Part shown: positions 18,901 to 27,100 of the stretch, piece after piece
Numbering within the stretch: the stretch's first letter is position 1
How the letters are laid out: each line of letters opens with the position of its first letter
Assembly: GCF_964188315.1 (NCBI RefSeq)
Contig: NC_135673.1
Span: 18,352,001 to 18,416,000 of the forward strand
DNA length: 64,000 nt
Direction: 5' to 3'
Source of the DNA: Podarcis muralis
Lineage: Eukaryota
Program-made: the position numbers

Positions 18901-21900
18901 TAGGACATGCACTTGTTATGAATATGTGTTTACCTTTAACCTTATGCCAAATATTAAGCTTTCACACTAAAGGAATAAAAAGCTTGGTTTGTTATATGAA
19001 ATAGAAGTGACAGAATGTATATAAATGCTGCTTCAGATGGCTAAATAAACAGTTTGTGAGGCAACATCTCACAATAAATACATACACACCTTGATCGAAA
19101 GAGTAACAGAAATACCTATTCTCAAAAAGCCTGTAGAAAAGTGAGCTTGGCAATTTTGCCACTGAAACCCACACTAAATAGCAAAGCAGAAATGGAAAGC
19201 GAACACTACCTGTTCTTAAGCACGTGTATGCTGATCTTGAGAGCCTTGCATAAGTTCTGTTGAAGCTAGCAAACTGACTACTTGGGAATTGGGGGTTTAA
19301 AATACAATGGTACCTCGGGTTAAGTACTTAATTCATTCTGGAGGTCCGTTCTTAACCTGAAACTGTTCTTAACCTGAAGCACCACTTTAGCTAATGGGGC
19401 CTGCTGCTGCTGCCGCACCGCCGGAGCACGATTTCTGTTCTCATCCTGAAACAAAGTTCTTAACCCGAGGTACTATTTCTGGGTTAGCGGAGTCTATAAC
19501 CTGAAGCGTATGTAACCCAAGGTACCACTGTAATATTGAACTAATACCTCCTAGTAGAGAAGTGAGGGGCTTTGAAATGGAACAGTTCCTGCCCATTTCT
19601 CACCTTTGTCCATCTAGTGAAAAAATGGCTAAAACTGGTCATCCAGTTTGCTTCCCACTCTGATGTTTTGCTTAACAAAAGGATGAAAGCCTGTGATAGT
19701 GAGCCATTAACTGTACCTGGCCATCTTTTCATCTGCTCTCTGCCTTATCTCTTTCCTGCTGGTGAAAGTGCTTATAAGGGATATACACACACACACACAC
19801 GTAAAAATAATAGTGCAACACTTTTGAGTTCAGTGGGGCTTACCCTCAGGTAACTGTCCATGCAGGATAGCAAGAAATGATGAAACTTACCGGAAGAATC
19901 AAGAAATCAAGATAACAAACTTTTTATAAAAGACTATTGACAGATAAATTACAGATAAGATCATTGGCAGGATAAGATAACAGATAAGATCATTGGCAGG
20001 ATTATTGTAATAACCTGCAGTTTTATAAGAGTATATATTTAAAGCAGATGAATAAATGAGCAAATTAAGTTAATTTGGATATGCAGAGGATATTAAAAAA
20101 TTTAAGGAACCGCAGAAAGGGGGGGAAGGAAGTCAAGCTTTTAAATGTTAAAATGATTGTAAAATTAGTGGAATGTATAAAACTAGTGAAATGTTTAAAC
20201 TTGAAAAGTATAAATAAAATTTGTAAAATTCGGAGGGTGGGGAGAACAGTCTTCCACGCTCGGCCAGATTTTTCCCACCTGGTAACTTGGAGGCTGAAAA
20301 GATCTGGTTCATCCTACTAGGCTTTTCAGAGCTGGCCCTTGATGCCTTGCTGGATTCCAGAATGGCATCAACCAATCGTATTTGCAGCATGTCCTGGAAT
20401 CCTTACCTGTCTCCTTGTTCACACTTTGGGCTGTAGGCTCTTCCTCGCAACATTCATGGTTTTCCTCAGTTTCTTCAGGAAGGGATAAATAAGGAGCTTA
20501 ATGTCAGCACCCTCAAAAAAACAAGTAACCTCTCTGAGCAGTGTTTTTTATTGCCTGGGTAGGGATCCATTGAATTCCTATCCTACGTACAAACTTTTGT
20601 TTGAGGGAGTTGTGTTGTCCTACTCCCCTGTCATACATAGATTCACTCCTTGGAATTAAAATTGGGCTCTCGCAGCTCTCAGGGGTCCCCATTTTTATCC
20701 ACAACTCAGCGCGCTTCATCAGGATAAAGTTGTGCTATCCCCACACCTTTTCTCGTGCCTAAACTTCATTCAGATGTAAGATGCATAACTGGTAAGCTGA
20801 GCAGAGCTGATTGTGCATCAAAAACCAGCCACACAAATACAATCACAAATAAAACGCCTTAAGTTAATTATACGTTCCAAAGTTACTCTCACTGGTTTCT
20901 CAAAGGTGATCCTTCCTTGCCAGAGGTGACCTGATTAAAACGCCTTTCCCGGTTTCTCTTTGCAGGATGGGAAATAACAGCATAGGTCAGCATTCCAGGC
21001 TAATAAGCTCACGTTCCCTGAGCTGTGGTGAGAGAATCTCCTGTGACACCCATGCCCCAACAGGCATTGCAGCTCTGGCTGATGTGCCACAGTTGTGTCA
21101 GTAGGTGGCAGAAAGGAACAGACTATGTCTACGCTCAGTGTTCTGCAACCTGTGAGAATTCAGAATGATTAGTAGCCTGACAGGTGTCCCCAACTTCCTC
21201 AAATGTGATATTAAGGTTCCTGCAAAAATCATGTTCTGTCTGTCCAAAATTGAGGGGTCTTAGCAAGTTTCTAGTCTTCATGGTTCTGAATAAAGGGCTG
21301 AATTATAAGGGATGCAGGTGGCACTATGGGTTAAACCACAGAGCCTAGGACTTGCCGATCAGAAGGGTGGCAGTCCGAATCCCCGTGACTGAGTGAGCTC
21401 CCGTTGCTCGGTCCCTGCTCTTGCCAACCTAGTAGTTTGAAAGCACGTCAAAGTGCAAGTAGTTAAATAGGTACCGCTCCAGCAGGAAGGTAAACGGCAT
21501 TTCCATGCGCTGCTCTGGTTTGCCAGAAGCAGCTTAGTCATGCTGGCCACATGACCCGGAAGCTGCACGCTGGCTCCCTCGGCCAATAAAGCAAGATGAG
21601 CACCGCAACCCCAGAGTCGGCCACGACTGGACCTAATGGTCAGGGATCCCGTTACCTTTAAATAGGAACACAATAAACTGCATTCTACTGAGTCATCCCT
21701 TTGCAGTCCACCTAGCTTAGTACTGTCTGCTGTGATTGGCAGGGCTGCCCAGAGTTTCAGGCAGGGAGTCTTTCCCAGCCTTTCCTGGAGTGGTCAGGGA
21801 TTGAACCTGAGACAGGTATCTGCACACCAATGAGATGATCCACCAATGAGCTCCAGGCAGTGCCTTCCACAATTTCCCCACCCGGTAGAGCAACTTTCAA

Positions 21901-24122: not shown

Positions 24123-27100
24123 GCACGAATTGTTCAGAAAGTGCCCAAAGCTTTCTTTTCAAATTTTGTAATGCGCTTAATTTTTCAGTATGCCATGATG
24201 CACAGACCAGTATCTAAACGAAGTTTTTTAACTGTGTGCGAAATACATATATTTTTTTCCACTTGCAGTCCACCACTCTGAAAAATACTGAAGCAAGTCC
24301 TCAGCACATCACTACATTCAGCAAGCGCAACTCATTGGAGTGCATACATCAATGCTATGTGACCAGTGTATGAAAAGCCAGCAAATATAACTTGAAAAGA
24401 TAACTTCATTTACCAAACTCTCAACTGGAGAGCCTGTTACTTCCCTGAGTGACAATGTCTTGAAAAGATCTATCTAGTGATGTGTATCAGATGACACATA
24501 AGGACAGGAAAACTTCCCACAGATTTGGTCATTCTTGAACTTGCTCCAGTGAGTCATTCAAAGTGGTTAGGAACAGCAAACAGGCTTGGTCGCATATGGG
24601 TTTCAAAGCATGACCTTAAAGGCAAAACCCTCCACAACTTAAGACTGATAGAGGAATACATCTTTTGTGTGTACTACCAATGCTGGTTCAACATCAAAGT
24701 AAAATACTCCTGGGATGGAATGCCCACATCTTGTTTCAGGTGCAGTGAGTTAGGCTGCAAAAGAAGGTTATAGTGGGTGCTGTTTTGCCACCCATCCAGC
24801 GCTCAGCATGGTATGCATTCAGGAAGATGATAATTCAGACACTCTTGTGCTCAGATGACAGTGAGGAGAGCTGGTGTCCGAAAGATGATTGACTTGAGGG
24901 GTGGAGATCATGACACTCTGGGAGATCTTTCTGTAAATCTTAGAAATATATCTTTCACAAATCCCAAGTGTTTTGTCCCTGTTGGAACTGATAGATGAAC
25001 CAATGCAAGACTTGATTAAACTTGTTTAAGTTTCTTATTAGCTGATGTCATTACCTTGTAATTAGAAAACATTAGAAAGTAATGTTGTATGTTTAGTAGG
25101 ATATGCTTTATGTAGAGAAACTAAAAATTTTATAGGATTACCAGGCACTTTCAGAAGTTAAACTTAAAATTCTTTGGTTTTCTGAGAGCAGTTTATGTGC
25201 TTTTTAATGAAATGTGGATTGAGCAAGCTAAATGTTGTCCAATCATAAAAATAATAGCAGATTTTAATTCCCCAGACCCAAAAACATATTTTTAAGACCC
25301 CTCACTGAAGAAATTTGGAAAAATTAACTTTCAGTCCTTAAAATGACATGCCCTAAATTGTGGTGGGCCTCTTGCGGCGTCTTGAATTGTGATGCTTATG
25401 TAAACTGATAAAAACACGCAATAAAATTACTAAAAGGGGGTAGGGTGGGGTTGCATAAGCAATCATTTTATCCCAGAAAGCTGCTGTTGCTCTGGGGGAG
25501 ACCAGAGGCCACCTTCACACCATACTTTAGTATGCTATTATACCACTTTAAACAGTCATAGCTTCACCCAAAGAATCCTGGGAGCTATAGTTAAGGGTGC
25601 TGAGAGTTGTTAGAAGACCACCTGTCTCCCTCACAGACCTGCATTTCCCAGTGTGTGTGGAATAGGGGCCTCCTAATAACTCTCATACTCTTAAACTATA
25701 GTTTAAGTATGATTCTTTGGTGAAAGCCAAGACTGTTAAAATTGGTATCCAGTGCAGTCATAAAATTCTAGGAGCCCCCAAGAGTCCTGGGAGCTGGAGT
25801 TTGTCCAGAGTTGTTAAGAGGACCCCTATTCCCTTCCCTCCCCAAGCTACAATTCCCAGGGTGGTATAGCAGTCCCACATCCTACAGTACTTTGGGAAAT
25901 GTAGCTTTGGGAGGGGAATAGCAGACTGTCTTAACTCCCATCACGCTGAACAAACTACAGCTTCTAATTGATCGGTGACGTGGTAATGTTATGTTGTATT
26001 ATTTATGCAAATTGATTTTCTCTGGAGTTAAAGATCTGACTGGGACAAACCTTCTATGCTGAACTCGTATTTTGCACAATTTGTTTATGGTGTTTGTTTG
26101 ATAATGTGTGGTTTGCTATGCCTAATAAAGGATTGACTTTTTTAAAAAAAAAACAACTACAGCTTCCAGAATTCATTAATGGAAGCTGTAACTATTTAAA
26201 GTAGTATCATTGCATTTTAAATGTCTGGTATGAATATGGTCATATCACAAGCAGACAAGAAGAGCTCAGATAGGTTAGCCCAGGACCTGGCTTCTCCCTG
26301 TTTTTTGTACTGGGACTCTAGCAAAAGAATTCCCACCCACCCACCCCCAGTGTTGTTCTGCTTGCAGCAGTTGCCAGCCATCCCTTTTTGGGTTTCTCTT
26401 GAGGGATGAGGTGTTGTCACCACCCAAAGATTTGAGAGTACAGCGGTGGTGTTTATGTTTCATGTGCGGCATGGATCTGATTGTCAAAGCTCCCCAACCG
26501 CCAGGTAAAATTAAAAAAGAAAAAAATGTGTTGATGTTGTAAGATGTGACAAGACTGGTAAAATTGGGGAATTGCCCAAACTAGCAAATTCTAGTTTCTA
26601 GGAGTGAACCATGCTAAGACAGCATTTTGCAAAAGATCTCTGTGCCCTGTCCAGAGGCTATGAGGTTTGTGGCTCTCTTGGAGCTTGTGAAGACCCAGAT
26701 TCAAACCCTGGCATTGCCAGCAAGTTGCTCGGAAGCTGGGGATGGGTGGTAGATAAGTGGCCCCGGGGTCAATCCCTGGAGCATCTCCAGGTGAGACTGG
26801 GAATGTCCCCTGTCTGAATTGCTAGGGAGCTGCTTCCAGCCCTTCTGGACAACACTAAGCTAGACGAACCCAAGGTTGTGACTCTGCATAAGGAGACCAG
26901 GATTCAAATCCCCTACTCAGCCATGAAGCTCACTGGCTGACCTTGGGGCAGTCGCTTGCTTCTTAGCCTATCCTACCTTGTAGGGTGGTTGTTGGGATAA
27001 AATACACTCACTACCTTGACTTTCTTGAAGGAAAGGTGGGGCATATAAACCTAAGGACGAGGCCAAAGAGATAGAGAGAGCACTATTTATTTACATCAGA

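What the first reader, a model, noticed from the sequence alone, without database searches (positions are those of the whole stretch)
20722..26140. Unannotated-looking spliced non-coding snoRNA host (SNHG7-like) with tiny exons and no CpG island
Several 20-45 nt segments are bounded by strong splice sites (donors 20792, 20986 or 21028, 22058, 22379; acceptors 20965, 22021, 22333). A TCT/5'TOP-like start CCTTTTCTC (20746-20754) has GATAAA about 24 nt upstream, and AATAAA lies at 26124. snoRNA host genes are typically 5'TOP and non-coding (established). Unlike the four other promoters in the window there is no CpG island. So either a CpG-poor TCT promoter drives it or the snoRNA is processed from MRPS2 read-through, which would couple a cytosolic rRNA modifier to a mitoribosomal protein gene (inference). 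Only one snoRNA was found, whereas human SNHG7 hosts two (SNORA17A and B).
Basis: partly seen in the sequence, partly recalled or inferred. Interest (0 to 1): 0.66.

Follow-up and report, generated by a model that had tools for sequence, protein, structure and literature searches.

The report
Lizard SNORA17 in a probable non-coding host
A genuine rRNA-modifying small RNA gene (SNORA17) lies between MRPS2 and DIPK1B in a wall-lizard genome, probably inside an intron of a small non-coding host gene like human SNHG7, which is an expected arrangement and not a surprise.

Summary
The window is lacertid lizard DNA, not human: its MRPS2 exon is 100% identical to Podarcis muralis. Gene order is PPP1R26 > MRPS2 > SNORA17 < DIPK1B.

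SNORA17 at 21051-21184 (+) is real and full length (90.8 bits, gathering score 29). It is the only snoRNA found.

- Donor "22058" is at 22059.
- Acceptor 22021 is weak (74th percentile).
- AATAAA 26124 lies in a 190-nt polyadenylated retroposed fragment flanked by a 12-nt target-site duplication. It is not a native gene end.

The best support is an exon-like unit, 20966-21027, ending 23 nt upstream of the snoRNA. Only 0.4-0.8% of window positions have one as good that close. The TATA-like box, pyrimidine run and strong donor at 20723-20792 occur together only once in the window (a post hoc test).

A better 3' end is ATTAAA 22462, which has a strong GU-rich downstream element. That implies a compact gene of about 1.7 kb. 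Human SNHG7 also neighbours DIPK1B (PMC11405852).

No transcript or cross-species DNA data were available, so the host model stays a prediction. This is an ordinary new member of a known kind.

The parts
15901..16440 (+). MRPS2 last coding exon and stop codon; the start coordinate is approximate
   Evidence: Pfam Ribosomal_S2, E 2.1e-39. The coding part is 100% identical to P. muralis uS2m. Both annotated isoforms end at this ORF's last residue.
20723..20728 (+). TATA-like hexamer GATAAA, 24 nt upstream of C20747
   Evidence: Read directly. Only 8 of 646 pyrimidine runs have a TATA-like hexamer 16-39 nt upstream. Function is not shown.
20746..20754 (+). Pyrimidine run CCTTTTCTC, a candidate 5'TOP/TCT start
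   Evidence: It is the only 1 of 646 runs with both a TATA-like box upstream and a donor >=9 bits downstream (post hoc). The start site is not mapped.
20747..20791 (+). Putative exon 1 (45 nt), ending at donor GT 20792
   Evidence: Donor scores 9.2 bits, 99.4th percentile. Stops occur in 2 of 3 frames.
20966..21027 (+). Putative exon 2 (62 nt; 20 nt if donor 20986 is used)
   Evidence: Acceptor 20965 scores 12.6 bits (99.9th percentile) and donor 21028 scores 7.9 (98.4th). Its position just upstream of the snoRNA is matched at only 0.4-0.8% of window positions.
21051..21184 (+). SNORA17, an H/ACA box snoRNA; H box AAAGGA at 21112-21117, ACA at 21180-21182
   Evidence: Rfam RF00560, 90.8 bits against a gathering score of 29, E 3.5e-16, model positions 1-132 of 132. 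Boxes were read. No flanking direct repeat of 8 nt or more; no A-tail (read).
21345..21660 (+). SINE copy inside the putative snoRNA intron
   Evidence: Self-BLAST finds other copies at 59246-59585, 60019-60308, 52058-52299 (-) and 18648-18793.
22022..22058 (+).
   Evidence: Acceptor 22021 scores only 1.9 bits (74th percentile). Donor 22059 scores 7.6.
22334..22378 (+). Putative exon 4 (45 nt). Acceptors 22091 (9.9) and 22184 (8.5) could extend it upstream.
   Evidence: Acceptor 22333 scores 7.7 and donor 22379 scores 10.1 (99.6th percentile).
22462..22520 (+). ATTAAA with a GU/U-rich downstream element; the best polyadenylation candidate after the snoRNA
   Evidence: Downstream-element count is 19, the 98th percentile of the 92 plus-strand hexamers in the window.
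23272..24130 (+). LINE 3' part followed by an (ATT)n tail, in sense orientation
   Evidence: 92% identical over 773 nt to 62879-63650 (-). Its 264-aa ORF has no Pfam hit above cut-off.
25965..26154 (+). Retroposed polyadenylated fragment carrying AATAAA 26124 and an A10 tail
   Evidence: An exact 12-nt direct repeat lies at 25953-25964 and 26155-26166. The flanks are contiguous in the paralogous repeat copy at 16647-16876. Its downstream element is poor, 27th percentile.
27317..28150 (-). DIPK1B last coding exon, convergent with the snoRNA
   Evidence: Pfam PIP49_C, E 2e-64. 98% identical to Lacerta agilis DIPK1B. The first minus-strand AATAAA is at 27091.

Best explanation
SNORA17 of a lacertid lizard is most probably released from an intron of a short, spliced, non-coding RNA polymerase II transcript on the plus strand. 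That transcript would be the positional counterpart of mammalian SNHG7.

Shown here:
- The snoRNA is canonical and full length.
- The surrounding 10.9 kb has no detectable coding exon.
- DIPK1B is the convergent neighbour.

Inferred model:
- Transcription starts near 20747, at a TATA-like GATAAA followed by a pyrimidine run, without a CpG island.
- Exon 1 ends at donor 20792.
- Exon 2 runs from 20966 to 21027 (or to 20985).
- The snoRNA lies 23 nt into the next intron. It would be trimmed out of the spliced intron while the H/ACA proteins protect it, which is the established route for vertebrate intronic snoRNAs.
- The downstream half is uncertain. Splicing would most plausibly go to 22092, 22185 or 22334.
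- The transcript would then either end at ATTAAA 22462, giving a gene of about 1.7 kb, or splice on from donor 22379.

The AATAAA at 26124 is not a native gene end.
For: - Rfam scores SNORA17 at 90.8 bits against a gathering score of 29, over the full model. The H box and ACA box are in place. No flanking direct repeat of 8 nt or more and no A-tail (read), so it is not a retrocopy.
- Of 145 ORFs of 55 aa or more between 12 and 30.5 kb, only the MRPS2 and DIPK1B ORFs pass Pfam cut-offs. None lies between 16.5 and 27.3 kb.
- The one long ORF in the finding (22621-23049) has no real homologue.
- Each putative exon is 20-62 nt and has stops in one to two of three frames.
- Unit 20966-21027 scores 20.5 bits and ends 23 nt before the snoRNA. 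Such a unit lies this close at only 0.4-0.8% of window positions, and there is none on the antisense strand.
- At the same thresholds the matrices recover both internal coding exons of the canonical MRPS2 isoform.
- The combination of TATA-like box, pyrimidine run and strong donor occurs once among 646 runs.
- ATTAAA 22462 has the best GU-rich downstream element in 16.4-27.3 kb.
- Literature: human SNHG7 hosts SNORA17A and SNORA17B in introns and neighbours DIPK1B (PMC11405852, section 9 and passages). It is described as 5'TOP and has isoforms with or without a fourth intron (PMC7244715, passages).
Against: - There is no transcript evidence of any kind.
- The splice matrices were recalled from memory and are crude.
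- The number of exon-like units in the 1.7 kb is only about 3 times expectation.
- The promoter test was defined after seeing the case.
- GATAAA lies 24 nt from C20747, not the usual 30 nt or so. By my recollection of the TCT consensus, the motif matches in 7 of 8 positions.
- A good acceptor at 20478 (9.9 bits) could make 20747-20791 part of a longer internal exon with a start further upstream.
- Acceptor 22021 is weak.
- No cross-species comparison of the splice sites was possible.
- Only one snoRNA is present, against two in human.
Confidence: 0.55

Rival explanations
1. A non-coding host exists on the plus strand, but with a different structure. Its start lies further upstream (17.9-20.7 kb) or elsewhere, and most of the listed micro-exons are chance splice-like sites.
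For: - Exon-like units occur at 0.41 per kb per strand by chance or otherwise.
- Acceptor 20478 (9.9 bits) and donors 19850 and 18592 (8.5 bits each) lie upstream.
- Pyrimidine runs are ubiquitous, 646 in the window.
- No CpG island marks a promoter.
Against: - Acceptor 20965 and donor 21028 right at the snoRNA are hard to get by chance.
- Donor 20792 is the best donor within 1.9 kb upstream.
Confidence: 0.25
2. The snoRNA is processed from MRPS2 transcripts, either by read-through or by alternative 3' exons that splice into 20966. This would couple a cytosolic rRNA guide to a mitoribosomal protein gene.
For: - MRPS2 is on the same strand, and its stop is 4.6 kb upstream.
- The first canonical AATAAA after the stop is 1.4 kb away, at 17875, and has a mediocre downstream element.
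- There is no CpG-island promoter in between.
Against: - No donor >=6.5 bits lies between 16400 and 18591 to leave the MRPS2 terminal exon.
- 10 AATAAA/ATTAAA hexamers lie between the stop and the snoRNA.
- Both annotated P. muralis MRPS2 proteins end in this exon.
- A local TATA-like/TOP-like start with a strong donor exists.
- The SNHG7-DIPK1B adjacency in human suggests an independent unit (PMC11405852).
Confidence: 0.12
3. The SNORA17 copy is not processed from a spliced host. It is either independently transcribed or a silent relic.
For: No host transcript is shown. The minimum-free-energy fold is no better than shuffles (z = -0.04).
Against: - The covariance score is three times the gathering score, with intact H and ACA boxes.
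- It is the only copy in the window, and it lies at the syntenic place beside DIPK1B.
- Nearly all vertebrate guide snoRNAs are intronic (PMC3349704, search-listing abstract only).
- H/ACA RNAs commonly show unremarkable minimum-free-energy values, because their guide pockets are open (my own knowledge).
Confidence: 0.05

Closest known systems
Human SNHG7, the non-coding host of SNORA17A and SNORA17B
   Same: It hosts a SNORA17-family H/ACA snoRNA. It has no coding capacity. It is a direct neighbour of DIPK1B (PMC11405852). A 5'TOP-like start is possible; human SNHG7 is called a 5'TOP gene in PMC7244715. A strong donor followed by a polyadenylation signal recalls the human isoforms with or without a fourth intron.
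   Different: There is one snoRNA here, not two. There is no CpG island. MRPS2 is the immediate upstream neighbour; by my recollection the two are about 1 Mb apart in human. The exons were not compared with mammalian ones: human sequence was off limits, and the literature says SNHG exons barely align even between human and mouse (PMC11405852, section 9). The relative orientation to DIPK1B in human was not checked. The paper's legend speaks of an overlapping DIPK1B 5'UTR, whereas I recall a tail-to-tail arrangement like the one here.
GAS5 / UHG (SNHG1) class of 5'TOP non-coding snoRNA host genes
   Same: The same logic applies: short, poorly conserved exons, the functional product in the intron, and an oligopyrimidine start. 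The class features come from my own knowledge of Smith & Steitz 1998; the comparison of SNHG7 with Gas5 is in PMC7244715.
   Different: Those genes carry many, mostly box C/D, snoRNAs and sit in CpG-rich promoters in mammals. This one has a single H/ACA snoRNA and a CpG-poor, TATA-like upstream region.
Rfam RF00560 SNORA17 (clan CL00029, with SNORA43/SNORA17B)
   Same: Full-length match at 90.8 bits, with hairpin-H-hairpin-ACA architecture.
   Different: It comes from a squamate. An Ensembl release 50 count quoted in PMC2832892 (Table 2) listed SNORA17 in 0 loci in zebrafish, medaka, Xenopus and chicken, and 1 in platypus. The family therefore reaches beyond what that old annotation showed. 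Current annotation was not available to me.

Membership tests
SNORA17 (Rfam RF00560), H/ACA snoRNA | Covariance-model score at or above the gathering score over the whole model | tested here: met
   90.8 bits against 29, model positions 1-132 of 132, E 3.5e-16.
SNORA17 (Rfam RF00560), H/ACA snoRNA | H box (ANANNA) in the hinge, and ACA three nucleotides from the 3' end | tested here: met
   AAAGGA at 21112-21117 and ACA at 21180-21182, followed by GGT. The real 3' end is not mapped.
SNORA17 (Rfam RF00560), H/ACA snoRNA | Guide pockets complementary to the 28S rRNA target uridines | not tested
SNORA17 (Rfam RF00560), H/ACA snoRNA | Expressed as a stable RNA of about 130 nt | not testable with these tools
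   No RNA data.
SNHG7-type non-coding snoRNA host gene | The snoRNA lies inside an intron of a spliced transcript on the same strand | tested here: inconclusive
   Strong acceptor 20965 and donor 21028 lie just upstream, and several acceptors lie downstream. No transcript evidence.
SNHG7-type non-coding snoRNA host gene | No protein-coding capacity | tested here: met
   No Pfam hit between 16.5 and 27.3 kb among 145 ORFs. The exons, translated one by one, are 20-62 nt with stops. ORF 22621-23049 has no true homologue. The joined exons were not assembled or searched.
SNHG7-type non-coding snoRNA host gene | Positional orthology: next to DIPK1B | tested here: met
   The DIPK1B last exon is at 27317-28150 (-). 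Human adjacency is from PMC11405852, Fig. 3A legend.
SNHG7-type non-coding snoRNA host gene | Two SNORA17-family snoRNAs in separate introns | tested here: not met
   1 hit in the window at gathering score. No second H/ACA hit at E<=10 in 14000-30000.
SNHG7-type non-coding snoRNA host gene | Exon sequence similarity to mammalian SNHG7 | not tested
   Comparison with human sequence was barred. It is expected to be uninformative anyway (PMC11405852, section 9).
5'TOP / TCT-initiator gene | Transcription starts at a C followed by 4-15 pyrimidines | tested here: inconclusive
   The motif is present at 20746-20754, but 646 runs of 8 nt or more exist in the window. The start site is not mapped.

The most novel reading that the evidence does not exclude
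In this lizard, SNORA17 has no promoter of its own and is made from MRPS2 read-through or alternative 3' exons. Production of a cytosolic 28S rRNA pseudouridylation guide would then be tied to transcription of a mitoribosomal protein gene. This would be a host switch relative to mammals.
Probability: 0.1. Interest if true: 0.45.

Novelty: new member of a known kind. Interest (0 to 1): 0.2.

Why it matters
If confirmed, the locus would show two things. First, the SNORA17 host unit has kept its place beside DIPK1B, and perhaps its oligopyrimidine start, since the split of mammals and squamates. Second, its exons, its CpG content and the number of hosted snoRNAs have all changed. This fits the published view that only the introns of snoRNA host genes are under selection. 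It is a useful annotation point for lizard genomes, but it does not open a new question.

Tried and rejected
- **Bacterial-type promoter and terminator scan of 20300-21100.** It found 0 sites. The tool does not model eukaryotic promoters, so this is uninformative.
- **Minimum-free-energy fold of the snoRNA.** z = -0.04 and the H/ACA shape was not recovered. I did not use it as evidence and relied on the covariance model instead.
- **My first impression that 22.6-25 kb is a decayed hAT/DUF4371 transposon.** No tool supported it.
  - Pfam gave nothing above cut-off.
  - The word-indexed search among longer proteins gave none.
  - The exhaustive search gave 3 hits at E<=0.001 in 1.84 billion representatives. 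All are proteins with repeated Ig or Ig-like domains, matched through a short DSGxYxC-like motif summed over up to 15 repeats. I take these as spurious.
- **Chicken (PMC2653536) and Xenopus (PMC6984369) snoRNA surveys.** A term search of the main texts found no SNORA17/ACA17 host. The only 'ACA17' strings are the chicken name GGgACA17. Their supplementary tables, which may list it, were closed.
- **Second SNORA17/SNORA43 copy.** None at E<=10 in 14-30 kb.
- **Retrocopy origin of the snoRNA.** Rejected: no flanking direct repeat of 8 nt or more and no A-tail (read).
- **Test of the splice matrices on other units.** My exact-substring test did not match units 15460/15540-15603 to the two P. muralis MRPS2 proteins. 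It also did not match three minus-strand units to the Lacerta DIPK1B protein. Only 4 of 9 rows tested, representing 2 exons, were confirmed as coding.

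
Full report
**Origin of the window**

The stop-to-stop ORF 15820-16437 (+) carries a Ribosomal_S2 domain. Its coding part is 100% identical to uS2m (MRPS2) of Podarcis muralis. ORF 27320-28150 (-) carries the FAM69 kinase domain and is 98% identical to DIPK1B of Lacerta agilis. A 1147-aa ORF at 2474-5914 (+) is PPP1R26.

I therefore take the window for a lacertid lizard, not human. No human contig was fetched or compared. 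The gene order is PPP1R26 > MRPS2 > [finding] < DIPK1B. The N run at 51626-51768 was left alone.

**The snoRNA**

Rfam at gathering threshold gives 2 matches in 64 kb:
- SNORA17 (RF00560) at 21051-21184 (+): 90.8 bits against a gathering score of 29, E 3.5e-16, covering model positions 1-132 of 132.
- A marginal tRNA-like hit at 54074-54145.

The H box AAAGGA (21112-21117) and the ACA box (21180-21182, followed by GGT) are in place. A permissive scan of 14000-30000 (E<=10) returned 14 matches. Only SNORA17 exceeds its gathering score, and none of the other 13 is a snoRNA family.

The snoRNA has no flanking direct repeat of 8 nt or more and no A-tail (read), so it is not a retrocopy. Its minimum-free-energy fold is unremarkable (z = -0.04). 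I do not count this against it.

**Coding potential**

I scanned 145 stop-to-stop ORFs of 55 aa or more between 12 and 30.5 kb against Pfam. Only the MRPS2 ORF and two DIPK1B ORFs passed the curated cut-offs. None lies between 16.5 and 27.3 kb.

The longest ORF inside the finding apart from the LINE ORF, 22621-23049, gave the following:
- no Pfam hit;
- no hit among longer proteins;
- 3 hits at E<=0.001 in the exhaustive search. All are proteins with repeated Ig or Ig-like domains, matched through a short motif summed over many repeats. I regard these as spurious.

Both annotated P. muralis MRPS2 proteins end exactly at the end of ORF 15820-16437.

Each putative exon (45, 20/62, 37 and 45 nt) was translated alone and has stops in one to two of three frames. 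The exons are too short for the protein search tools. The Rfam scan of the genomic interval covers them. The joined sequence was not assembled or searched.

**Splice sites**

I used donor and acceptor weight matrices whose frequencies I recalled from memory, so they are approximate. The background was all 6493 GT and 9658 AG of the window on both strands.

| Site | Score (bits) | Percentile |
|---|---|---|
| Donor 20792 | 9.2 | 99.4 |
| Donor 20986 | 5.5 | 94 |
| Donor 21028 | 7.9 | 98.4 |
| Donor 22059 | 7.6 | 98.1 |
| Donor 22379 | 10.1 | 99.6 |
| Acceptor 20965 | 12.6 | 99.9 |
| Acceptor 22333 | 7.7 | 96.8 |
| Acceptor 22021 | 1.9 | 74 |

Acceptor 22021 is weak.

At thresholds of 7.5 bits for both sites, the matrices list 52 exon-like units in the window (35 on plus, 17 on minus). 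These include the two internal coding exons of canonical MRPS2, confirmed against the protein. Five other rows that I tested did not match by my exact-substring test.

At 0.41 units per kb per strand, about 0.7 are expected in this 1.7 kb, and 2 distinct units are seen. The cluster as such is weak evidence.

What is unusual is position. Unit 20966-21027 (summed score 20.5) ends 23 nt before the snoRNA. Only 0.41%, 0.8% and 3.1% of all positions on both strands have an equally good unit ending within 50, 100 and 400 nt upstream. The antisense strand has none.

**Start**

CCTTTTCTC (20746-20754) and GATAAA (20723-20728) are there. Pyrimidine runs of 8 nt or more number 646 in the window. Of these:
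- 8 have a TATA-like hexamer 16-39 nt upstream;
- 25 have a donor >=9 bits 10-120 nt downstream;
- only this one has both.

The test was framed after the fact, so it overstates significance. The 24-nt spacing is short for a TATA box. An acceptor at 20478 (9.9 bits) leaves room for a start further upstream.

There is no CpG island. Observed/expected is 0.12-0.56 from 20501 to 26500. CpG-rich windows lie at 501-1500, 16001-16500 and 46501-47500, with weaker ones at 12501-13500 and 35001-35500.

**3' end**

The AATAAA at 26124 is followed 14 nt later by A10. The 190-nt segment 25965-26154 is flanked by an exact 12-nt direct repeat at 25953-25964 and 26155-26166. The two flanks align to adjacent, overlapping positions of one paralogous repeat copy at 16647-16876.

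This is the signature of a 5'-truncated, polyadenylated cDNA fragment retroposed into an older repeat. The signal was imported, and its downstream element is poor (27th percentile).

By contrast, ATTAAA at 22462 is followed by a dense GU/U-rich stretch. Its count of 19 is the 98th percentile of the 92 plus-strand hexamers and the best in 16.4-27.3 kb. It lies about 85 nt after the very strong donor 22379. This suggests a compact gene of about 1.7 kb with an optional last intron. That would resemble the human isoforms with or without a fourth intron (PMC7244715, passages).

Most of the rest is repeats:
- a SINE at 21345-21660;
- another repeat at 21678-21808;
- a LINE tail at 23272-24042, 92% identical to 62879-63650 (-), followed by (ATT)n;
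- a repeat at 25503-25655.

**Read-through from MRPS2**

Several observations argue against it:
- No donor >=6.5 bits lies between 16400 and 18591.
- Ten AATAAA/ATTAAA hexamers lie between the MRPS2 stop and the snoRNA.
- The annotated proteins end in the exon at 16437.

This makes the coupling idea less likely but does not exclude it.

**Comparison with what is known**

- Human SNHG7 encodes two lncRNAs of about 1 kb, carries SNORA17A and SNORA17B in introns, and neighbours DIPK1B. SNHG exons are poorly conserved, and mouse Snhg7 keeps little similarity to human (PMC11405852: outline, section 9 and passages read).
- SNHG7 is called a 5'TOP gene like Gas5, with the snoRNAs in its second and third introns (PMC7244715, passages).
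- An older Ensembl-based count listed SNORA17 in 0 loci in zebrafish, medaka, Xenopus and chicken, and 1 in platypus (PMC2832892, Table 2 passage). A clear squamate copy therefore extends that picture. Current annotations, which I could not see, probably already include it.
- MRPS2 and DIPK1B proteins come from contigs of identical length in 9 species. These include a 0.9-Mb shark contig. In Pleurodeles the locus tags are two apart. Their linkage therefore looks old.

**Verdict**

The snoRNA is real. The 3' half of the model needs revision. Everything about expression remains to be shown. The finding is an expected orthologue of a known arrangement.

**Unchecked**

- RNA data.
- Vertebrate DNA comparisons.
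- The public annotation of this genome.
- Paper supplements, which were closed.
- Complementarity to the rRNA target.

Noticed in passing
window 25965-26154 (direct repeats 25953-25964 and 26155-26166): A 190-nt fragment ends in AATAAA, 14 nt, then A10. It is flanked by an exact 12-nt target-site duplication and is inserted into an older interspersed repeat. It looks like a 5'-truncated retrocopy of an mRNA 3' end. The source gene is unknown.
   Followed up: yes
window 17394-17509 and 38372-38487: A palindromic element of about 116 nt matches its other copy in both orientations (80-89% identity). It gives sub-threshold Rfam hits to several microRNA families. It looks like a MITE hairpin, inside the likely MRPS2 3'UTR.
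   Followed up: partly
window 20850-20860 and 20936-20946: An exact 11-nt direct repeat, TAAAACGCCTT, occurs 86 nt apart within putative intron 1. The second copy lies just upstream of the polypyrimidine tract of acceptor 20965. Unexplained.
   Followed up: partly
window 54074-54145 (+): A tRNA-like match barely above the gathering score (30.1 against 29 bits). It is probably a SINE head or a tRNA pseudogene.
   Followed up: no
window 23272-24042 (+) and 62879-63650 (-): Two LINE 3' parts are 92% identical over 773 nt, which suggests a fairly young family. The copy in the finding keeps a 264-aa open frame and an (ATT)n tail.
   Followed up: partly
window 19300-19539; copies at 57148-57381 and 58570-58808 (-): A repeat of about 235 nt with 90-93% identical copies elsewhere in the window.
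   Followed up: no
window 2474-5914 (+): A single 1147-aa open frame matches PPP1R26_N over the whole profile (E 9.5e-203). PPP1R26 lies upstream of MRPS2.
   Followed up: no
window 12.8-16.4 kb (MRPS2); proteins P0001 and P0002: P. muralis has an annotated MRPS2 isoform X1 with 26 extra residues between the third and last coding exons. I did not locate the extra exon. Units 15460/15540-15603 did not match it.
   Followed up: partly
window 27086-27091 (-), 25263-25268 (-), 25203-25208 (-): DIPK1B has a canonical AATAAA about 230 nt after its stop, and only ATTAAA signals 2 kb further on. Overlap with a plus-strand transcript would need the distal sites.
   Followed up: no
(protein hit tables): MRPS2 and DIPK1B proteins come from contigs of identical length in 9 species: 6 squamates, Pleurodeles, and two cartilaginous fishes. 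In Pleurodeles the locus tags are two apart. This suggests old linkage of the two genes.
   Followed up: no
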